Virus record (IMG/VR): IMGVR_UViG_651703075_000001
Location: 1 to 64,000 of that record
DNA length: 64,000 nt
Strand: one strand, 5' to 3'
Origin: a virus
Lineage: Duplodnaviria; Heunggongvirae; Uroviricota; Caudoviricetes
Shown here: positions 3,740 to 63,772 of the stretch, piece by piece
How positions within the stretch are numbered: position 1 is the stretch's first letter
Layout: every line of letters begins with the position of its first letter
Notes under the pieces: model-generated
What the model was told of the DNA's origin: nothing
Database searches by the model: none
Seen by the model: only the letters and a program-made list of their open reading frames with translations
Position numbers and translations under genes: made by a program

Positions 3740-4110
3740 TGCTCACGCCACCCATGCTAAGCACTCACTTCGTCAAGAACGAGGTGATTCGCCGGCCCAG
3801 GAAGCGCCTGGTCCGAGGACGGCCTGTTCAAGACCCTCCGGAGATTTACATTGTCGAGGGAAGCTTCCAGCCTGTGCTGAAAAGCACGGACACGATGCAA
3901 CTCCCCGAGGGTGAACGGACCAAGAAGGCTTTGAAGGTTTATACCAGGAACCACACCACCCTGCGAGAAGCCAACGAGGCTGAGGATGGCTGGGATGCGG
4001 ACCAGTTCTGGTGGAAGGGCGAGCTGTACGAAGTCGTGAAGACCGCTTCCTACGACATGAGGGTCCTGGATCACGTCAAAGCCATGTGTGTTCGTGTGGA
4101 GGGTACCTGA
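3736..4110 (+). CDS. hypothetical neck/tail completion protein
   Basis: 124 aa, ATGA start-stop overlap with upstream gene. Confidence 0.4.
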   Translation: MMLTPPMLSTHFVKNEVIRRPRKRLVRGRPVQDPPEIYIVEGSFQPVLKSTDTMQLPEGERTKKALKVYTRNHTTLREANEAEDGWDADQFWWKGELYEVVKTASYDMRVLDHVKAMCVRVEGT

Positions 4111-4730
4111 TGGCCCTGACCATGGACGAGCTGAGGGCGAAATACCCCGGCATAGAGGACATTTACACCCAGTTGGAAGATGCCCTCTACAACGTGGCTG
4201 AGGCTGCTTTGGGGGATTTCCCTCTGGTGCTAAGCTACTGTGATAACCAACAGACCCAGACGCCTGCACTGTACATCGAGCCGATGGACATCAAATCGGT
4301 ATTCACCGAGCAGGTAGCAGGCACTCTGGAGATTGACCCAACAGACCCAGAGAGGGCTGTGCAAGAGGTCACCAAGTGGTACACCCTTAAAGCCCGTTTT
4401 ACAGGCCTGGGGAGTCCACACAACCACGCCATGGCAGCGGCAGCAGTCCAGCATTTGGAATTCTTCCTCAGCACTGAGGAGGGTTACCAGGCTTTGGAAT
4501 CCAACGGGTTTTCAAAGAATGGGGCCAATCCAATTCGTCGGATCAGGGATCAACGTCCCAATGAGCTGTACCAGCATTTCCGGTACGATGTTCATTTGTC
4601 CTACGCCATAACACGGAAAGAAGAGGTGACCTGGATCGAAGCTTTGGAGCTGGACGCGGTTTACACCAACGCCGGACGAGAGCCTGACCACGTTATCAAG
4701 AACCATATCTCACTCAACGAGGAACCCTGA
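4110..4730 (+). CDS. hypothetical tail terminator/neck protein
   Basis: 206 aa from internal ATG overlapping upstream stop (tgATG); track ORF 4011 has implausible N-extension. Confidence 0.4.
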   Translation: MALTMDELRAKYPGIEDIYTQLEDALYNVAEAALGDFPLVLSYCDNQQTQTPALYIEPMDIKSVFTEQVAGTLEIDPTDPERAVQEVTKWYTLKARFTGLGSPHNHAMAAAAVQHLEFFLSTEEGYQALESNGFSKNGANPIRRIRDQRPNELYQHFRYDVHLSYAITRKEEVTWIEALELDAVYTNAGREPDHVIKNHISLNEEP

Positions 4731-4732
4731 AG

Positions 4733-6055
4733 ATGACCCGTCTTACCGACATCATCCAGATCACCATTGATCGGCAAACGCAGCCGGTAGCCACCACTGC
4801 GTTCAACGTGCCGATGTTCCTGGCTACCCACTCCAACTTCTCCGAGCGGGCGCGGGAATATGCATCGACGGAAGCTGTCATGGCAGACTTCCCGAACAAT
4901 AGCTCCGTAATGCAGGCAGCTCGTATGGCCTTCGCACAGAACCCGCGCCCCAACCGCCTGGTTGTTGGTCGCCGCAACGTGCCAGGCGCCACTGTCTCCA
5001 TTGTAGAGGTTGCACCGCAGACCACCTACACCATGACCCTGAACGGTATTCCGGTGAGCTACCTGTCGAAACCGGAACCTGTGGATGAAGATGACGATCC
5101 GGCAGACACGGCAGTAACCATCTGCGCAGGCCTGGTAGCAGCTTTCAACGTCAGCCCGGTCGTTGGCATCACTCTGACCGACAATACCGACGGTACCATC
5201 ACCGTTCGCAGCTCCAGCACCTCCTGGTCGCTGACTACCTCGGCAAACCTGTCGAAGTCGAACATGCCGTCCACCGAGGGCTGGGGTGCCGCTATCCTGG
5301 CAGTAAGCGCTGCGAACAGCAAGTGGTACGGTGCTACCATCGAATCTCACGTCCCGGCAGATGTCCTGGAAGTGGCTGCTACCATCGAGTCGATGAGTGC
5401 GAAGAAAATCTTCGGTACCTCTACCAGCTCCGTGGCTGTGAAGAACGCCACTGCTGGCAACATCCTGGAGACCCTGAACAAGGCTGGCTACCATCGCACC
5501 TTCCTGCTCTGGAATGGTCGAGCTGACCAGGACTTCCCGGAACTGGGCTGGATGTCGAGCCAACTGCAAGAGCAGCCGGGCAGCAACACCTGGAGCTTCA
5601 AGGGCATCGCTGGAGCTACCTACGATGAGCTGGACGACCAAGAGTCGGCAAACATCCACGACCACAAAGGTAACACCTATGAGTTCGTCGGGGATGCCAA
5701 CAGCACCACGTTCGGTAGCATGGTGTCTGGCGAGTGGATCGATACCATGGTAGGCATTGACTGGTTCGAAGCCCGCCTCCGGGAGCGCCTGTGGTTCCGT
5801 CAGCGGAACAGCAAGAAAATCCCGTACACCAAGCAGGGTACCACCATCCTCGAAACGGATGTTCGAGCACAGCTCCAAGAGGGCATTCGAGTTCAACTGT
5901 TCACCGACACCCCGGCTCCCCGGGTCCGTGTACGGGACGCAAACAGCATGTCTCCGAATGATCGGGCTCGCCGGTTCTATGACGGTATCGAGTTCGAAGC
6001 TCAGCTCGCTGGTGCCATCCACATCATCGGTATCCGTGGCGTAGTCACGGCATAA
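4733..6055 (+). CDS. tail sheath-like protein (DUF3383-type)
   Basis: 440 aa, RBS, immediately followed by three tube-like paralogs; order sheath-tube-chaperone-tape measure. Confidence 0.5.
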   Translation: MTRLTDIIQITIDRQTQPVATTAFNVPMFLATHSNFSERAREYASTEAVMADFPNNSSVMQAARMAFAQNPRPNRLVVGRRNVPGATVSIVEVAPQTTYTMTLNGIPVSYLSKPEPVDEDDDPADTAVTICAGLVAAFNVSPVVGITLTDNTDGTITVRSSSTSWSLTTSANLSKSNMPSTEGWGAAILAVSAANSKWYGATIESHVPADVLEVAATIESMSAKKIFGTSTSSVAVKNATAGNILETLNKAGYHRTFLLWNGRADQDFPELGWMSSQLQEQPGSNTWSFKGIAGATYDELDDQESANIHDHKGNTYEFVGDANSTTFGSMVSGEWIDTMVGIDWFEARLRERLWFRQRNSKKIPYTKQGTTILETDVRAQLQEGIRVQLFTDTPAPRVRVRDANSMSPNDRARRFYDGIEFEAQLAGAIHIIGIRGVVTA

Positions 6056-58696: not shown

Positions 58697-59976
58697 ATTC
58701 TCTGCCAGGTGGTCACAAGTTTCTATTCGGTCGCCATAATAATGACCCTGGGGAGGGTCCTACGGACCGTCACGATAACAGGGGAATTATGGCCATGTTA
58801 ACAGGGCCTATAGGCTTCGTAGAAGCCAGTTTAGCTTAGGCAGTACCCTAGTATAGGAAAGGCCTTGAAAAGGCCGTATGCGCGCCCCCAGGGGGCCTAT
58901 CGGGGAGGGAGTGGGCAAGTGCCCCCTCCCCGTGTCTAAGCCTTATCAACTGGACTCTTCGAGTCCATTCCAACAGGCTTCTACGAAGCCATATAATCAC
59001 CAGTCATAATACCAATCATGCGCAGAGCATCCGGGTAGGATGATCAAGCCATTGGTCTCTCCTCTCTGTCAAGAATTCTGTAACAATCACTAGGTCACGT
59101 CGTGACCCATTGTGTAACAGTCGGCAGACTGTCATTCGGGCAGGGGCATTTGCCCCCTTCCTGCCCTCCTAAACTAGCTGGCTTCGACGAAGCCTTCCCA
59201 TGCCACCAACCCAATTATGTAACAGCCTGGCCATGGTCATGGCCCATTGTGTAACGGCATTGCATGCCAGGATCACCAGACAGCCCCAGCCAGTCCAATT
59301 GTGTAACCATTCCCCATCCCAGCAGCAGAATATCCCCAGCCAGGAAGCCCATGACCCTCCCCATTGCATCCTAGGTGCTCAGCCCCTGGAATACGTCGAT
59401 TGTGTAACCCATGACCACCCATGCCCTAGTAGGCCTCTTCGAGGCGAGCTAATGCCGGCGTCTCTCTACCCTCACGGGAAGAGTTCCCCCTTTATTATGG
59501 CGACCGAATAGAGAATGCCCGGTTCATGCGGCCTGTAGGCCATTACAATGGCCAGCCCGGGTAAGGATTGCATTACACAATAGGCTTACCCTCACCCCTG
59601 AATTGACAGGCCTCGAAGAGGCTAGCCAGGCTCAGACAGACAGCTTGAGTTACACAATTCCCCCTCACATATTGCCCCACTCCCCATGCCACACCCCTGA
59701 CATTCAACCCCACGCCCCAGCCTCAGCAGATACATTTGCTTCGACGAAGCCTGGATATTTCCAGATCATGACGGCGCCTCATGGCCACCCTCGGGTCTTG
59801 TTAAATACCCCGGCTGCCTATCTGGAATTTCAGAATCATGATGCCCCTCCCCAGTCACACCCCCAGGCCCGTTCCCCAGGATTCCCCCAGATATATTTCC
59901 CAGGCTGGTGCCCAGGAAGGGTGCCCCCATGTACCCCTGAAATTTTGGCGGGGGTGGGTTTCTGAATTGAAAAATG
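58697..59976. repeat. 1.3 kb non-coding hub with dispersed ATTGTGTAAC repeats (both orientations) and GGCTTCG-N-CGAAGCC / GGTCACG-N-CGTGACC palindromes
   Basis: no ORF with RBS on either strand; at least 5 forward and 2 reverse copies of (A)ATTGTGTAAC; several 7-bp-arm palindromes. Confidence 0.6.
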
Positions 59977-60006
59977 TTGACAGGCCCCTGCCGGGGCTTC
60001 ACAATG
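59977..60006 (+). promoter_or_regulatory. promoter TTGACA-N17-CACAATGGCC driving the paralog array
   Basis: family-type extended -10 (AATGGCC); track ORF 59974 ATG lies inside it. Confidence 0.55.
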
Positions 60007-60039
60007 GCCCCATATTCGCTGCCAGAGAGGAGGCACCCC

Positions 60040-60471
60040 ATGGTTTTGTTTATGTATGATGTTGACCCCGGCTCCCTGCCTGTAGGCTGCTACGGGGCTT
60101 TCCTGAAGACTCCCCACGCCATCCGTGTTGCCCTGTGTGAGCTGGCTAGCTGGGCTAAGGAAGGATGTCCCCAGCATCCCGTGTTTGAAAGACAGAAACG
60201 AATCTGCAACAACGTGGGGAAGTACCTTCTTACCCATGGCAACTACACTCACCTGGCGATGGTGAACTGGAAGCTGGAATACCTTATGTCCTGGGCTGGG
60301 TTTTCCAGAGGGCACCCCCTTCCCTTCGAGCTAGGGGGTAAGCGGGATGAGAAGGGAGAGTATTACGAGAACCCCAACAGGTTGCATTTCCTGGACATGG
60401 TGGTTATGATGTCCAAGATGTATTACAACGATGAGATGAAGCGTTTGGAAGGAGGGAAGAATGATGTGTGA
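60040..60471 (+). CDS. paralog-family protein 1 (W..G.P / R.C.N / AG / YPFE / Y.NP.R..F family)
   Basis: 143 aa from ATG with RBS gagaggagg; motifs SWAKEGCP, RICNN, LPFELGG, YYENPNRLHFL. Confidence 0.5.
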   Translation: MVLFMYDVDPGSLPVGCYGAFLKTPHAIRVALCELASWAKEGCPQHPVFERQKRICNNVGKYLLTHGNYTHLAMVNWKLEYLMSWAGFSRGHPLPFELGGKRDEKGEYYENPNRLHFLDMVVMMSKMYYNDEMKRLEGGKNDV

Positions 60472-60802
60472 GAATGTGCGTTTTGTACTGGCTGTGAAGC
60501 TCCTCCACCCAAAGGTGAAGGCAGGGTTGGCCAGGATGGTCAAGTGGTACAAGGAAGGTATGCCTGGTGACCGCACCTTTTCCAAGTACACCCGGCTATG
60601 CTCCAACATCTTTCTTGAGACAGGTGTTGCGTATGCCCTGGTTGATCTGTTCACAGCTTACGGGCTGTCCTTCACCTCCTCGTACCCCTTCGAGGGTGGT
60701 CAGCGGATAGAGGTCCCTGAGGACATCTACAAGAACCCTCTCCGGGTCAAGTTCCTGCTGGATGTTGGTGCTGTGTTGAAGGAGGAAGGATATGATTGCT
60801 GA
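60461..60802 (+). CDS. paralog-family protein 2
   Basis: 113 aa; WYKEGMP, RLCSN, YPFEGG, IYKNPLRVKFL. Confidence 0.5.
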   Translation: MMCENVRFVLAVKLLHPKVKAGLARMVKWYKEGMPGDRTFSKYTRLCSNIFLETGVAYALVDLFTAYGLSFTSSYPFEGGQRIEVPEDIYKNPLRVKFLLDVGAVLKEEGYDC

Positions 60803-61166
60803 TCTGACATATGCTGAACGTGTTGCTGATTTGAAGTGGGCCTGGGACAGGACTGATAAGGGTCTCCAGGAGGTGCTGAGGGAGTTCGTAGCCTGGTACA
60901 CGGACGGGTGCAGGAATAGTGACCGATTCACCCGCTACTGGCGTATCTGCACCAACGTGAATAACCACTGGGATAGTGGGCCCTATGATGACTTCGAAAT
61001 GGGCAACCTGTTCATCGCTGCCGGGTACCACTACGTCTGCTTCCCGTTTGAGCAAGGGGAGCGCCTGGATACCTCGGACAACATCTACGATAACCCTCAC
61101 CGCAGGGAGTTCCTGGACCTGCTCCATGAGGTGATCCAGCAGGAGGCCCAGAATGAAGCTGTCTAA
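60792..61166 (+). CDS. paralog-family protein 3
   Basis: 124 aa; WYTDGC, RICTN, AAGY, FPFEQG, IYDNPHRREFL. Confidence 0.5.
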   Translation: MIADLTYAERVADLKWAWDRTDKGLQEVLREFVAWYTDGCRNSDRFTRYWRICTNVNNHWDSGPYDDFEMGNLFIAAGYHYVCFPFEQGERLDTSDNIYDNPHRREFLDLLHEVIQQEAQNEAV

Positions 61167-61515
61167 GCAGTTCGTTGCCACCCTGATGGGTGTGCCCATG
61201 CCTGTGAAAGAAGCCCTCTTCGAGCTTGGCAAGTGGAAGCAGGAGGGGTTTCCTGATGGCCATAAGGTGTTCAAGAAGACGTACCGGCTGTGCGATAACC
61301 TGGTAGGTTTCCTGGAGTATCGGTCTCTGGACCAATCCCTCCTTGCACCATGGTGGTCCTACACGTCAGCGTTGTTCCTGGCTGCGGGGTACCCGGGAGG
61401 GTCGTATCCCTTTGAGAATGGAGAATACCTTGACTGGGCGGATGAGCTGTACGATAATCCGAAGCGTCTGAAATTCATCGACATGTGTTGGGAGGTTTTG
61501 AATGGAAATGGGTGA
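61153..61515 (+). CDS. paralog-family protein 4
   Basis: 120 aa; WKQEGFP, RLCDN, AAGY, YPFENG, LYDNPKRLKFI. Confidence 0.5.
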   Translation: MKLSKQFVATLMGVPMPVKEALFELGKWKQEGFPDGHKVFKKTYRLCDNLVGFLEYRSLDQSLLAPWWSYTSALFLAAGYPGGSYPFENGEYLDWADELYDNPKRLKFIDMCWEVLNGNG

Positions 61516-61843
61516 TTATGTGTGGAAAGAGCTTGCACCAGAAGTGAAAGAGGGGCTGTTGGCCCTGGTGAAATGGAAGGATGAAGGCTTCTCCGAGCAT
61601 CCTTGCTTTGACCGAAGGGTCCGTCTGTGTAAGAATTTGGCCTCTTTCTTGGAGGCTAAAGGTATGCGTCGGGTAGAATCTATGGTACTGGTAATCAACT
61701 CCATGTCAGGTTTATTTCTCGCTGAAGGTTTTAAAAAAGGGGCGTACCCTTTCGAGAAGGGGAAGGGAGACCTTCAGCCCATGATCTACACTAACCCCCA
61801 TCGTCTCGAATTCATTGAAACTTGCAGGAGGAAACTGGCATGA
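61502..61843 (+). CDS. paralog-family protein 5
   Basis: 113 aa; WKDEGF, RLCKN, AEGF, YPFEKG, IYTNPHRLEFI. Confidence 0.5.
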   Translation: MEMGDYVWKELAPEVKEGLLALVKWKDEGFSEHPCFDRRVRLCKNLASFLEAKGMRRVESMVLVINSMSGLFLAEGFKKGAYPFEKGKGDLQPMIYTNPHRLEFIETCRRKLA

Positions 61844-62742
61844 CCCTAGACCTAAACAGAGCACCTGCTTCGGCTACCCACTACTCCGTTCGGACGGACT
61901 CTCCCTTTACAACCTTCTGGAGAAAGGAAGGTGATCTGTTTACCCGTATATGGGTAGCTGATGCAGAGGGTTTACGTCTCCCAGAAGGGCGTACTCCCAC
62001 CCCTTACGAGAAAGATGTTGCGAGTGTTTATGCCAAGCCCTTACCATCCCCTCCTCAGGGTGTAGTGGATAATCCTGTCGTGGCTTCATACCGGGAAGCG
62101 TTCAGCCCCGCCCCTCAGGTTGAGTCGGGAGAAACCCGGGCACGTGGGAAAGTGGACTATAGCAGTCTGGACAGCTACATATGGAGCCAGGCCCCCCTTC
62201 AGGCCAACTTCTTCTCCCTGGGGCTGAACGGGGAGTTGAACTGCTGGCTGCGCGTTGAAGAAGACAAGATCGTAACGGTTTGGACGGAGCAGGGTACGGT
62301 GTATAACTATCGATCATCCGACCGACAACCTTCGGTACCTGGTCCGAGATTCCCCCGCCCCCAGAAGAAGGAAGAGGCCTCCCCTCAAGAGTGGGACGGT
62401 GAAGGACTCCCTCCTGTCGGCTGCACCGTCCAACTGGTGGACATCTCTTCTCCTGTGAGCCCGCCTTTCGATGAGTGGTTGCTTGGGGACTACCTGGAGG
62501 TGATCGCCCACAAGGAGGTTTGTGGAACCGTTCGTCCTGTCGTGTGGAATGACAGGAAGCAGACGGGATCGTCCATCCTTCCAAGGCTGATTAGCCCTGT
62601 GTCCCAAGAGACTCTGGCTGCCGAGAAGGAACGCCAGCAAGGTATCCAGGAAATGGTCTCTTTGGTGAGCAGCATGGACCTTGCCCGTGCCCTGGAAGTG
62701 CTGTATGATGCAGGCTATCGTAAACAGGAGGACACCGAATGA
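61840..62742 (+). CDS. hypothetical protein (Pro-rich, not family member) embedded in paralog array
   Basis: 300 aa from ATG overlapping upstream stop with RBS ggagga; lacks YPFE/NP-R motifs. Confidence 0.45.
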   Translation: MTLDLNRAPASATHYSVRTDSPFTTFWRKEGDLFTRIWVADAEGLRLPEGRTPTPYEKDVASVYAKPLPSPPQGVVDNPVVASYREAFSPAPQVESGETRARGKVDYSSLDSYIWSQAPLQANFFSLGLNGELNCWLRVEEDKIVTVWTEQGTVYNYRSSDRQPSVPGPRFPRPQKKEEASPQEWDGEGLPPVGCTVQLVDISSPVSPPFDEWLLGDYLEVIAHKEVCGTVRPVVWNDRKQTGSSILPRLISPVSQETLAAEKERQQGIQEMVSLVSSMDLARALEVLYDAGYRKQEDTE

Positions 62743-63092
62743 ACACCCATGAACGACTGCTACGTGCTGTGCAAGCTCTGCCTCGGGACCTGATCCCGTC
62801 CCTGCATGACCTGGTGGCCTGGTACCACTCAGGCTGCCCGGATGGGTCCCCGTTTAACACCTCCCGTAGGATATGCGGGAACGTATACCGACACCTCATC
62901 TGCAAAAGAGGGGTGAGTCCTGAAAGGGCCTGTGATCTGGAGGACTGCCTGTACTCTCTTTACGAGGCCTTCCTGGATGTTGACCTCAGCGACGAGGGGT
63001 TCCCATTCGACGACGAAGCGACAATCTACAAGAACCACTACGACAACCCGCTCCGCATGGCCTTCCTCAAGTGTCTGTCGGAGGTGCTGTGA
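62739..63092 (+). CDS. paralog-family protein 6
   Basis: 117 aa; WYHSGCP, RICGN, FPFDDE, YDNPLRMAFL. Confidence 0.5.
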   Translation: MNTHERLLRAVQALPRDLIPSLHDLVAWYHSGCPDGSPFNTSRRICGNVYRHLICKRGVSPERACDLEDCLYSLYEAFLDVDLSDEGFPFDDEATIYKNHYDNPLRMAFLKCLSEVL

Positions 63093-63772
63093 TGCGACTC
63101 AAGAGGATTGAACATATAAACTTCGAGAAGTTCTCCTGGCAGACTCAGGTTGCCTTGAAGGAGCTGGCTCGTTGGGTGTTTAAGGACATGGGTCCGTGGA
63201 CTGAGGGTAAGACCCATCCAGCCTTCTACCGGGGGTATCGTGTCTGCACCAACCTCCGCTTGTGGGAGTTGCATTACGGGTGGGGGGATAAGCATGGTCG
63301 GACGATCCAGACAGAGTTATCCGAAGAGTTCGTTCGTGTTGGCCTGGACAGGGACCTCCCCTTCGAAGGCCGTCTCTCGGATGACGGGATATTCGTTCTG
63401 GACGAAGATGCTGTCGAAGAACTCTACGACAACCCCCTTCGTCAGCGGTTCCTCCGACTAGCCCTGGAGAAGCTTTCAGCGCCCAAGGTGGAGGTCAGTG
63501 AGATGGTGGAAGACGCGCTCACAGCCGTGGCCCGCTGGGCTATTTTGAAGGAGTCCTTCTCCTGCTTCGAACCTCGGTTCCGAATCTGCTGGAACGTGGA
63601 GAACTACCTTACCTGGTTAGGGAAGAGCGAGGTAGAGGTCGCCAAAGCTTATCAGGAGTTGTCCAAAGTCTTCGGCGTCATGTACCCCTTTGAAAGTGAG
63701 GAAGGGTTTGACACAGAGGAAGAGATTTGGAAGAATGATCGCCGACTCTCTTTCCTGGCTCAATTTATCTGA
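63092..63772 (+). CDS. paralog-family protein 7 (tandem double domain)
   Basis: 226 aa from ATG overlapping upstream stop; domain 1 RVCTN...LPFEGR...LYDNPLRQRFL; domain 2 RICWN...YPFESEEG...IWKNDRRLSFL. Confidence 0.5.
   Translation: MRLKRIEHINFEKFSWQTQVALKELARWVFKDMGPWTEGKTHPAFYRGYRVCTNLRLWELHYGWGDKHGRTIQTELSEEFVRVGLDRDLPFEGRLSDDGIFVLDEDAVEELYDNPLRQRFLRLALEKLSAPKVEVSEMVEDALTAVARWAILKESFSCFEPRFRICWNVENYLTWLGKSEVEVAKAYQELSKVFGVMYPFESEEGFDTEEEIWKNDRRLSFLAQFI

What the first reader, a model, noticed from the sequence alone, without database searches (positions are those of the whole stretch)
60040..63772. Tandem array of seven genes / eight domains of a diverged small-protein family at the head of the early region
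Seven adjacent genes with overlapping stop/start codons carry eight copies of a ~115-aa domain, and the last gene holds two copies. The domain has a conserved skeleton: W-x2-(E/D)-G-x-P ... F-x-R-x-(Y/W)-R-(I/L/V)-C-x-N ... (A/E)-(A/E)-G-(Y/F) ... (Y/F/L)-P-F-(E/D)-x-(G/E) ... (I/L/Y)-(Y/W)-x-N-(P/D)-x-R-x-x-F-(L/I). Identity between copies is low, so the duplications are old and diverged rather than recent. The array lies directly downstream of the 1.3 kb non-coding hub and one strong promoter, where first-expressed host-takeover or anti-defense genes usually sit. I recognise no catalytic motif and cannot name the family from memory. A tandem-expanded, fast-diverging small protein family in this position is a strong candidate for a new host-interaction or anti-defense module.
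Basis: seen in the sequence. Interest (0 to 1): 0.8.

Follow-up and report, generated by a model that had tools for sequence, protein, structure and literature searches.

The report
Tandem N4 gp3-like early gene array
Right after the physical left end of Pseudomonas phage KPP10 sit seven genes carrying eight old, diverged copies of a small helical domain that also occurs (often also in multiple copies) in hundreds of other virulent phages, including coliphage N4 gp3, and whose function nobody has determined.

Summary
The window is Pseudomonas phage KPP10 (Nankokuvirus). In detail: gp107-gp111, gp113 and gp114 (60040-63772) carry eight copies of one ~100-aa domain. A profile built only from unrelated phages picks exactly these 7 ORFs out of 647 (E 2e-22 to 8e-9). 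Two corrections apply. The array is interrupted by an unrelated 300-aa gene, gp112. The 'non-coding hub' upstream contains the 771-bp terminal repeat, so these are the first genes on the physical genome.

The copies are old and under purifying selection (dN/dS 0.14-0.48), not fast-evolving. In PAK_P3 RNA-seq only the promoter-proximal copies are early-biased.

Function is untested. My best inference is a non-catalytic helical scaffold that binds host targets at infection onset. Whether it serves takeover or anti-defence cannot be decided here.

The parts
59047..59810 (.). Approximate position of the 771-bp direct terminal repeat (physical genome ends) of Nankokuviruses, inside the 'non-coding hub' 58697-60039
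   Evidence: Ab03 nucleotide 1 aligns to window 59047 and Ab03's last nucleotide to window 59802. Ab03's repeat_region is annotated at 1-771 and 85476-86246. The DTR is described in PMC4482731. PAK_P3 gp113 in this stretch is unexpressed and is called the predicted terminus.
59977..60005 (+). Sigma70-type promoter P1, TTGACA-17-CACAAT, 34 nt upstream of the gp107 ATG
   Evidence: Consensus scan gives 10/12 matches and the sequence was read directly. It is identical in PAK_P3. PAK_P3 gp114 is highly expressed at 3.5 min.
60040..60471 (+). gp107, family copy 1 (143 aa)
   Evidence: PHROG 2176 E 2.7e-55. Outside-only HMM E 1.5e-13. Ribosome-binding site gagaggagg upstream.
60461..60802 (+). gp108, family copy 2 (113 aa)
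   Evidence: PHROG 2176 E 1.5e-34. Outside-only HMM E 8e-9. 11-nt overlap with gp107.
60792..61166 (+). gp109, family copy 3 (124 aa)
   Evidence: PHROG 2176 E 3.1e-46. Outside-only HMM E 3e-11.
61153..61515 (+). gp110, family copy 4 (120 aa); modelled protein
   Evidence: PHROG 2176 E 2.5e-46. AF2 model has pLDDT 90.9, pTM 0.85 and six helices. Outside-only HMM E 6e-15.
61430..61458 (+). Promoter-like site P2 (TTGACT-17-GATAAT) inside the gp110 coding sequence, 44 nt before the gp111 ATG
   Evidence: Consensus scan. Conserved in PAK_P3. PAK_P3 early read density rises 13-fold from gp117 to gp118. Function as a promoter is inferred, not shown.
61502..61843 (+). gp111, family copy 5 (113 aa)
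   Evidence: PHROG 2176 E 4.6e-40. Outside-only HMM E 3.5e-17. 43% identical to gp110.
61840..62742 (+). gp112, unrelated 300-aa gene embedded in the array; paralog of gp122 (KPP10 67169-67708)
   Evidence: No hit to the family HMM. PHROG 3483 E 4e-63. BLASTP against gp122 E 1e-9. No Pfam or PDB match.
62739..63092 (+). gp113, family copy 6 (117 aa)
   Evidence: PHROG 2176 E 2.7e-34. Outside-only HMM E 1e-11.
63092..63499 (+). gp114 N-terminal domain, family copy 7
   Evidence: Two HMM stretches in one ORF. This domain is deleted in phage Ab03.
63500..63772 (+). gp114 C-terminal domain, family copy 8
   Evidence: Second HMM stretch, i-E 3.8e-9 with the outside-only HMM. The two-domain AF2 model has pLDDT 80.3 and pTM 0.79.
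63708..63736 (+). Promoter-like site P3 (TTGACA-17-AAGAAT, TG-extended) inside the gp114 coding sequence, 46 nt before the gp115 ATG
   Evidence: Consensus scan. Conserved in PAK_P3. PAK_P3 early read density rises 5.5-fold from gp121 to gp122. Inferred.

Best explanation
What it is (shown): a Nankokuvirus-specific tandem expansion of the 'N4 gp3-like' domain, giving eight copies in seven translationally coupled genes. This domain is a ~100-residue, all-helical protein module found almost only in virulent phages of Proteobacteria. It is catalogued as PHROG 2176/2510/6418 and pVOG 7392 and has no assigned function. The array is the first gene cluster after the left terminal repeat of the linear genome. 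It is read by host RNA polymerase from a consensus-like sigma70 promoter, and probably also from two internal promoters.

How it most likely works (inferred): the residues conserved across the family look structural. W, F, C and the P-F motif would act as loop anchors and core residues, and N-P-x-R as a helix cap. Surfaces and net charge differ widely between copies. I therefore read the domain as a non-catalytic scaffold that binds macromolecular partners.

The copies are made from the first minutes of infection. I infer that each paralog binds a different host protein or complex, or a different variant of one, to disable or redirect it. The two-domain gp114 and the 2-3-domain relatives elsewhere suggest the unit works as a dimer or pseudo-dimer.

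Within this reading I put roughly equal weight on two targets: conserved host machinery (takeover) and host immunity (anti-defence). The data here cannot separate them.
For: Identity and significance:
- family statistics; all seven proteins fall in PHROG 2176.

Breadth of the family:
- 541 cluster representatives at E <= 1e-3.
- 273 and 191 phage records by tblastn with two distant members.
- The seven VOG7392 genes of Phapecoctavirus anhysbys are exactly the family HMM hits.
- N4 gp3 scores 67.8 bits.

Restriction to phages:
- One plasmid hit.
- One hit in 185,579 genomes, and that hit is 100% identical to an IMG/VR contig.

Position at the leading end where genome ends are defined:
- KPP10/Ab03 at 1.05 kb.
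- N4 at 1.2 kb.
- Rhizobium, Ralstonia and Burkholderia Autographiviridae at 0.4-4.4 kb.
- N4-like phages at 1.9-3.4 kb, between the gp1/gp2 genes and RNAPII.

Expression:
- The PAK_P3 orthologs are transcribed at both 3.5 and 13 min, with the promoter-proximal copies among the early-biased genes.

Recurrent amplification:
- 4 tandem copies in a T4-like Yersinia phage, 3 in PTXU04, 3 domains in RHEph08, 4+1 in a 42-kb metagenomic phage, and 3-domain and 2-domain proteins in BcepSaruman.

Scaffold reading:
- High-confidence all-alpha model.
- No enzyme family or solved structure matches by sequence or fold.
- pI of the eight copies ranges from 4.6 to 8.8.
- Only W, C, P and R are invariant across 57 diverse members.

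Pseudo-dimer:
- pTM 0.79 for the two-domain gp114.
- In Ab03 two domains became fused by recombination and the phage is viable.
Against: - No experiment on any member was found in the searchable literature. Function is therefore pure inference from position, expression and shape.
- An invariant Cys, Arg and near-invariant Asn sit in or next to two long conserved loops. This could equally mark a ligand-binding or catalytic pocket. I could not inspect coordinates to see whether they are buried.
- The array is fixed in all 41 Nankokuvirus records and is under purifying selection. This is unlike the presence/absence turnover typical of anti-defence accessory genes.
- The sister genus Pakpunavirus infects the same host without the family, at least in the 45-93 kb half of PAK_P4 that holds its early region. 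The family is therefore not required for this infection strategy.
- The PAK_P3 authors did not class this region as 'early'.
Confidence: 0.45

Rival explanations
1. Specifically an anti-defence array. Each paralog would neutralise a different bacterial immune system or allelic variant. It would be expressed first because the DNA must be protected as it enters, by analogy with T7 Ocr at the leading end, and with multigene families at the genome termini of large eukaryotic DNA viruses (both from general knowledge).
For: - These are the first genes after the terminal repeat, behind a strong host promoter.
- Family members lie at the leading end in N4-like and T7-like phages.
- Paralog diversification and copy-number change occur, shown by the Ab03 fusion/deletion.
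- gp108, gp110 and gp111 have mosaic alleles.
- KPP10-like phages have a narrow, strain-specific host range (PMC4482731).
Against: - dN/dS is well below 1.
- The array is present with the same gene order in all 41 genus members rather than being an accessory locus.
- There is no similarity to any solved anti-defence protein or to any PADLOC entry.
- The copies are not uniformly acidic, so they are not an Ocr/ArdA-type DNA mimic.
- The family spans hosts with very different defence repertoires, which favours a conserved target.
Confidence: 0.2
2. A phage-directed function. The proteins would act on the phage's own DNA or on its transcription/replication programme rather than on host targets. 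Examples are end protection, recruitment of host RNA polymerase to middle/late promoters, or nucleoid-like organisation.
For: - Nankokuviruses depend on host RNA polymerase throughout and encode no recognised sigma factor or regulator (PMC5563952).
- Expression continues late.
- The array lies next to the repeat-rich terminal region.
Against: - The models contain almost no beta structure (none in gp110, one short two-strand hairpin in a low-confidence loop of gp114) and no recognisable wing.
- Median pI of the family is 6.3, and several KPP10 copies are acidic, which is atypical for DNA binders.
- Phages with entirely different transcription strategies carry the same domain (N4 with a virion RNAP, T7-like phages, T4-like phages).
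Confidence: 0.15
3. A small ligand-binding or catalytic domain, for example a sponge for a signalling nucleotide or a thiol-dependent modifier. All copies would share one conserved pocket formed by the two conserved loops and the N-terminus of the last helix.
For: - The most conserved residues cluster in two long loops and a helix start: W28, F40, C47/N49, P86-F87-(E/N)88, N102-P-x-R105.
- One Cys and one Arg are invariant across 57 diverse members.
- Oligomeric or tandem architecture is common among phage sponge proteins (general knowledge).
Against: - No sequence or fold similarity to any enzyme or to known sponges with solved structures.
- The frequent His three residues after the G-C-P motif, and the first Cys, are lost in several KPP10 copies, so there is no conserved dyad or metal site.
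- N-P-x-R and P-F are typical helix-cap and loop-anchor motifs.
- Eight diverged copies of one activity in one phage would be redundant.
Confidence: 0.1
4. The similarity between the ORFs is a chance or compositional effect, and the ORFs are not a real family.
For: None found.
Against: - The outside-only HMM finds exactly these ORFs among 647.
- Every gene has a Shine-Dalgarno sequence.
- The orthologs are transcribed in PAK_P3 and are under purifying selection.
Confidence: 0

Closest known systems
Coliphage N4 gp3 (YP_950481, NC_008720 1214-1528) and 'N4 gp3-like' proteins of Schitoviridae
   Same: Same domain family: 67.8 bits against the family HMM and 20.4 bits against an HMM built from the eight KPP10 copies alone. 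It is also a ~100-aa single domain, the third gene from the left genome end, and lies in the early operon.
   Different: N4 and most N4-like phages carry one copy, whereas KPP10 has eight. N4 gp3 is transcribed by the injected virion RNA polymerase, whereas the KPP10 array uses a host sigma70 promoter. N4 gp3 has N-Q-S-R instead of N-P-x-R. Its function is equally unknown: the N4 review covers gp1, gp2, gp15 and gp16 and says nothing about gp3.
PHROG 2176 / 2510 / 6418 / 27059 and pVOG VOG7392 (catalogued phage protein families of unknown function)
   Same: All seven KPP10 proteins hit PHROG 2176 at E 1e-34 to 1e-55 and hit PHROG 2510 weakly. Distant relatives hit 2510, 2176 and 6418 together. 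The seven VOG7392 genes of Phapecoctavirus anhysbys are exactly the family HMM hits.
   Different: These are clustering labels without function, structure or literature. The link between the PHROGs, the N4 gp3 membership and the recurrent tandem amplification were worked out here.
Small early 'monkey-wrench' / host-takeover proteins of virulent phages (e.g. T4 early ORFs, T7 class I genes such as Ocr and gp2, the SPO1 host-takeover module)
   Same: Small size, position at the leading end behind host-type promoters, early transcription and lack of enzymatic motifs. The PAK_P3 authors propose this role for their early ORFans in general.
Kleisin / winged-helix domains (MukF, Wadjet JetA)

Membership tests
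N4 gp3-like domain family (PHROG 2176/2510/6418, pVOG 7392) | Significant profile match over the whole ~100-aa domain | tested here: met
   PHROG 2176 E 1e-34 to 1e-55 for all seven proteins. An HMM built without any Nankokuvirus sequence gives E 2e-22 to 8e-9 for all eight domains and no other ORF in the window.
N4 gp3-like domain family (PHROG 2176/2510/6418, pVOG 7392) | Conserved skeleton W ... F ... (G/R)-(L/I)-C-x-N ... P-F-(N/E) ... N-P-x-R-(L)-x-(W/F)-(I/L) | tested here: met
   W28, C47, P86 and R105 are invariant, and F40, F87 and N102 are at least 90% conserved, in 57 sequences that include all eight KPP10 copies.
N4 gp3-like domain family (PHROG 2176/2510/6418, pVOG 7392) | Compact all-helical fold of about six helices | tested here: met
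   AF2 model of gp110 has pLDDT 90.9 and pTM 0.85, with helices at 5-13, 16-30, 46-56, 61-77, 96-101 and 103-116. BFVD Foldseek returns only family members, TM up to 0.86. This is a prediction, not a solved structure.
N4 gp3-like domain family (PHROG 2176/2510/6418, pVOG 7392) | Location among the first genes behind the leading genome end, in the early transcription direction | tested here: met
   The array starts 1.05 kb from the left end in Ab03 coordinates. Comparable positions are seen in N4, N4-like phages and Autographiviridae.
DNA-mimic anti-restriction proteins (Ocr / ArdA type) | Strongly acidic protein with a surface charge pattern mimicking DNA | tested here: not met
   pI of the eight copies is 4.6-8.8, four of them at or above 6.1. 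The family median is 6.3.
DNA-mimic anti-restriction proteins (Ocr / ArdA type) | Sequence or fold similarity to Ocr or ArdA | tested here: not met
Known anti-defence proteins in general (Acr, Acb, Tad, Gad and others) | Demonstrated inhibition of a defence system | not testable with these tools
   This needs plating or biochemical assays. No homolog with such data was found in the literature searches.
Any Pfam / NCBIfam / PADLOC family | Score above the curated threshold | tested here: not met
   No hit approaches a gathering threshold for the eight window proteins, for ten distant relatives, or for all 57 alignment members.

The most novel reading that the evidence does not exclude
The N4 gp3-like domain is a previously unrecognised, structurally new phage effector scaffold, and its tandem arrays act as 'counter-defence islands'. 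Each paralog (or heterodimer of paralogs) would neutralise a different host immune system or host-range barrier. The array would be placed at the leading genome end so that it acts before the rest of the DNA enters. This would be a bacteriophage analogue of the terminal multigene families of poxviruses and asfarviruses.
Probability: 0.2. Interest if true: 0.8.

Novelty: new member of a known kind. Interest (0 to 1): 0.5.

Why it matters
**Scale of the family.** The domain has 541 cluster representatives at 50% identity and occurs in at least six unrelated groups of virulent phages of Proteobacteria. These include therapeutic Pseudomonas phages (KPP10, the PAK_P3 group) and the model coliphage N4. 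It has no Pfam model, no solved structure and no known function.

**Distinguishing features.** The family sits at the leading genome end, and it has been amplified in tandem again and again. Few ORFan families share both features.

**Experimental tractability.** N4 gp3 gives a tractable entry point in E. coli K-12. The eight KPP10 and PAK_P3 paralogs form a natural specificity series.

**Payoff.** Identifying the target or targets would explain an early step common to many phages. If the target is immunity or host range, it would also bear on choosing and engineering therapeutic phages.

**If the function is mundane.** The result is still a clean family definition that links several PHROGs and a pVOG.

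Tried and rejected
- **Word-indexed homolog searches.** Searches with the paralog alignment and with the 57-sequence alignment found only close relatives (9 and 15 proteins). The exhaustive HMMER search was needed to see the family.
- **Library scans.** Pfam, NCBIfam and PADLOC scans of window proteins, of distant relatives and of all alignment members gave nothing above noise.
- **PDB by sequence profile.** Nothing below E = 1.
- **AFDB50 Foldseek.** The library was unavailable.
- **Hand-made degenerate DNA pattern** (P-F-N ... N-P-K-R-L-A-W-I). It found nothing in either genome or viral contigs. It was too strict to be informative.
- **The search for related loci with broad alignments.** A narrower alignment worked.
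- **Literature.** No paper names PHROG 2176/2510, VOG7392 or N4 gp3 function, or PAK_P3 gp114-gp121 individually. Two searches were badly designed and returned irrelevant plant and animal gene-family papers. Supplements of the ONT-cappable-seq paper, which hold the PAK_P3 transcription start and termination sites, are not held.
- **Positive selection.** Rejected on dN/dS.
- **DNA mimicry.** Rejected on pI.

Full report
**Provenance.** The window is identical to Pseudomonas phage KPP10 (AB472900.2 / NC_015272.2, genus Nankokuvirus), with the same coordinates. Forty-one related phage records cover the region at 90-100% nucleotide identity. Every gene under it is annotated 'hypothetical protein'.

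**The observation.** The + strand holds eight tightly packed genes between 60040 and 63772:
- gp107 60040-60471
- gp108 60461-60802
- gp109 60792-61166
- gp110 61153-61515
- gp111 61502-61843
- gp112 61840-62742
- gp113 62739-63092
- gp114 63092-63772

Successive genes overlap by 1-14 nt. Each ATG is preceded by a GGAGG-type Shine-Dalgarno sequence lying inside the previous gene.

Seven of the eight proteins are related. gp114 contains two copies, so there are eight domains. All-against-all BLASTP gives 26-43% identity, with E-values down to 6e-18 at a database size of 1e8 residues.

The strongest test is independent of these sequences. I built an HMM only from 49 family members of other phages and ran it against all 647 six-frame ORFs of at least 50 aa in the window. 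It finds exactly these seven ORFs and eight domains (E 2e-22 to 8e-9) and nothing else, even at E <= 10. The rest of the KPP10 genome (64-88 kb) has no further copy.

The one factual error in the finding is adjacency. gp112, a 300-aa protein, sits between the fifth and sixth family genes. It is unrelated to the family (PHROG 3483) and is instead a paralog of gp122, 4.4 kb downstream.

**Where the array sits.** Essoh et al. showed that KPP10-like phages have linear genomes bounded by a 771-bp direct terminal repeat, and that the deposited KPP10 sequence starts elsewhere (PMC4482731).

Aligning phage Ab03, whose record starts at the true end, puts nucleotide 1 at window 59047. Its last nucleotide maps to window 59802, so the repeat spans roughly 59047-59810. 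The '1.3-kb non-coding hub' is therefore the junction of the two physical genome ends.

In PAK_P3 the small ORF annotated there (gp113) is untranscribed and was called the predicted terminus.

The array is thus the first gene cluster on the DNA molecule, 1.05 kb from the left end. A consensus-like promoter, TTGACA-17-CACAAT, lies at 59977-60005 and is identical in PAK_P3.

**Expression.** This is taken from the closest studied relative. The PAK_P3 orthologs are gp114-gp118, gp120 and gp121, and PAK_P3 gp119 corresponds to KPP10 gp112. Chevallereau et al. define the PAK_P3 early region as gp74-gp112, which lies on the other side of the terminus.

Their differential-expression table gives these late-versus-early log2 fold changes:

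| PAK_P3 gene | log2 FC (late/early) | Significant |
|---|---|---|
| gp114 | -1.5 | yes |
| gp115 | -0.7 | no |
| gp116 | +0.7 | no |
| gp117 | +1.4 | yes |
| gp118 | -1.2 | yes |
| gp119 | +1.7 | yes |
| gp120 | -0.1 | no |
| gp121 | +1.3 | yes |

Converting one replicate's counts to reads per nucleotide gives the early profile 64, 34, 9, 5, then 65, 5, 15, 7, then 37 for gp114 to gp122. The late profile is flat at 12-23.

The early jumps coincide with two further sigma70-like sites inside coding sequence. Both are conserved in PAK_P3:
- 61430-61458, before gp111
- 63708-63736, before gp115

So the array is transcribed from the first minutes and throughout infection, with the promoter-proximal genes early-biased. 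Calling it the 'head of the early region' is only partly right.

**The family.** All seven proteins fall in PHROG 2176 (E 1e-34 to 1e-55, 'unknown function') with weaker matches to PHROG 2510. No Pfam, NCBIfam or PADLOC model matches.

An exhaustive HMMER search of 1.84 billion cluster representatives with the eight-copy profile returns 541 proteins at E <= 1e-3. Most are ~100-aa single domains, and some have two or three domains. Those relatives hit PHROGs 2510, 2176, 6418 and 27059 together and again no Pfam family.

tblastn with two distant members finds 273 and 191 phage records. They include:
- Phapecoctavirus and rV5-like coliphages
- phiEco32-like and N4-like phages
- Autographiviridae of Rhizobium, Ralstonia and Burkholderia
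- a T4-like Yersinia phage
- Achromobacter, Erwinia, Klebsiella and Acinetobacter phages

Coliphage N4 gp3 is a clear member, at 67.8 bits.

In Phapecoctavirus anhysbys the seven genes annotated pVOG VOG7392 are precisely the seven HMM hits.

The family is essentially confined to phages. There is one plasmid hit. In 185,579 species-representative genomes there is one confirmed hit, and it is 100% identical to an IMG/VR viral contig. The much smaller viral collection gave seven hits.

Across 57 diverse members only W28, C47, P86 and R105 are invariant. F40, F87 and N102 are nearly so.

**Tandem amplification is recurrent.** Family-HMM scans of fetched loci and protein data show:

| Phage or contig | Copies |
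|---|---|
| Yersinia phage JC221 (T4-like) | 4 adjacent genes |
| Coliphage PTXU04 | 3 adjacent genes |
| Rhizobium phage RHEph08 | 1 single-domain gene plus 1 two-domain gene, at the left end |
| 42-kb metagenomic phage | 4 adjacent genes plus 1 more |
| An IMG/VR contig | 2 adjacent genes |
| Burkholderia jumbo phage BcepSaruman | a three-domain and a two-domain protein |

In a neighbour-joining tree the eight KPP10 domains form one clade (66/100 bootstraps). The PTXU04 copies also cluster (79/100). Copies in other phages are interspersed. The KPP10 array is therefore a lineage-specific, old expansion.

The sister genus Pakpunavirus (PAK_P4, 45-93 kb, which includes its early region) has no copy.

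**Evolutionary regime.** Each KPP10 paralog has its own ortholog in PAK_P3. Nei-Gojobori dN/dS values are 0.14-0.48, with 0.92 for gp113 based on a handful of changes.

gp108, gp110 and gp111 are only 80, 73 and 65% identical between the two phages, while their neighbours are 90-98% identical. Their dS is raised as well (0.3-0.7). This fits the patches of about 20% SNPs with low dN/dS in the first 22 kb that Essoh et al. attribute to horizontal exchange.

The copies are therefore old, constrained and occasionally swapped. They are not fast-evolving.

Copy number does change. In Ab03, recombination at the shared Y-D-N-P-L-R codons of gp113 and of the first gp114 domain deleted window 63056-63416. 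This created a viable 215-aa fusion of the gp113 domain with the second gp114 domain. It shows one domain is dispensable, and it shows how multi-domain members arise.

**Structure.** AlphaFold2 on gp110 with the 57-sequence alignment gives a confident six-helix domain (pLDDT 90.9, pTM 0.85). Two long non-helical stretches, at 31-45 and 78-95, carry or flank most conserved residues.

No solved structure is related by sequence either. The fold has no recognisable characterised relative, with the caveat that these are predictions and that AFDB50 could not be searched.

**Mechanism.** Everything in this paragraph group is inference. The evidence is:
- a phage-restricted small helical domain
- first on the genome in phages with three different early-transcription strategies (host RNAP in KPP10, virion RNAP in N4, the T7-like scheme in Autographiviridae)
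- transcribed from the first minutes
- no catalytic signature
- conserved residues of the kind that anchor loops and cap helices
- surface charge that ranges from pI 4.6 to 8.8 among the eight copies

The most economical reading is a binding scaffold directed at host macromolecules, with paralogs specialised for different partners and a dimer-like working unit.

I give this umbrella explanation 0.45. It is split about evenly between takeover of conserved machinery and anti-defence.
- Takeover is favoured by fixation of the array across the genus, purifying selection, and the family's spread over many host genera.
- Anti-defence is favoured by the leading-end position, paralog diversification, allele exchange, and the narrow strain range of these phages.

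Rivals are a phage-directed role in transcription, replication or DNA ends (0.15) and a ligand-binding or catalytic pocket built from the conserved loops with the invariant Cys and Arg (0.10). I could not examine coordinates to judge burial of those residues.

**Comparison with the known, and novelty.** The closest named relative is N4 gp3, itself without a function. The N4 transcription review discusses gp1, gp2, gp15 and gp16 only.

The family exists as unlabelled clusters in PHROGs and pVOGs. I found no paper that names these clusters or discusses the Nankokuvirus paralog array.

In kind it belongs with the small early proteins of virulent phages, so I rate it a new member of a known kind. 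Three things stand out: the breadth of the family, the repeated tandem amplification, and the absence of any structural relative.

Interest is moderate (0.5). It is a well-defined and experimentally tractable lead rather than a surprise.

Noticed in passing
window 61840-62742 (gp112) and KPP10 67169-67708 (gp122; L001 11170-11709): The 300-aa gene embedded in the array is a paralog of gp122 (BLASTP E 1e-9). They share an N-terminal 'AP-x-(S/G)-ATH' motif, W-D-G-(E/Q)-G-L-P-P-V-G, and a C-terminal D-A-G-Y-R-K. gp112 appears to carry the N-terminal motif twice. It falls in PHROG 3483 and has no Pfam or PDB match.
   Followed up: partly
window 61430-61458 and 63708-63736: Two sigma70-like promoters lie inside coding sequence. 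Their -35 and -10 hexamers are formed by the codons of the family's own conserved C-terminal motif: (L/F)-D ... (Y/W)-(D/K)-N. Both are conserved in PAK_P3 and coincide with 13-fold and 5.5-fold jumps in early RNA-seq read density at the next gene. The conserved protein motif may double as a promoter for the downstream gene.
   Followed up: partly
window 58697-60039: The non-coding stretch holds the ~771-bp direct terminal repeat (about 59047-59810) and is dense in repeats. ATTGTGTAAC occurs about seven times in both orientations. The palindrome GGCTTCGACGAAGCC and variants occur four times. A perfect 21-nt inverted repeat (TCTATTCGGTCGCCATAATAA) lies at 58722-58742 / 59492-59512. The roles of these repeats (packaging, replication origin, end recognition) were not examined.
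   Followed up: partly
window 63056-63416; L014 (phage Ab03) 3756-4403: Phage Ab03 lacks this 361-bp segment. Recombination at the shared Y-D-N-P-L-R codons fused the gp113 domain to the second gp114 domain, giving a 215-aa protein. This removes one family copy and shows copy-number change by unequal recombination between paralogs.
   Followed up: yes
window 60461-60802, 61153-61843 versus L002 (PAK_P3) 3800-5185: gp108, gp110 and gp111 are 80, 73 and 65% identical to their PAK_P3 orthologs, with dS 0.3-0.7. Flanking genes are 90-98% identical with dS of about 0.18 or less. This is a mosaic patch of older alleles inside the array.
   Followed up: yes
L005 (Escherichia phage anhysbys) 10247-23465: Seven dispersed paralogs of the same domain lie in a 13-kb block of small hypothetical genes. 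All are labelled pVOG VOG7392, and one pair is adjacent. This is an independent large expansion of the family in Phapecoctavirus.
   Followed up: partly
L017 (MAG JAIUNU010000013.1, 135.8-kb contig) versus L021 (IMG/VR UViG, 38 kb): The only family hit in 185,579 bacterial and archaeal genomes is 100% identical over 12.3 kb to a viral contig from another metagenome. It is either a prophage in a Proteobacteria MAG or a mis-binned or chimeric contig. If it is a prophage, the family is not strictly limited to virulent phages.
   Followed up: no
KPP10 84008-86824 (L012 12009-14825; outside the window): The record annotates 'terminase large subunit' twice (84008-84826 and 85406-86824), with a 'head fiber protein' ORF between them. 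This suggests a split or interrupted terminase gene, or a misannotation.
   Followed up: no
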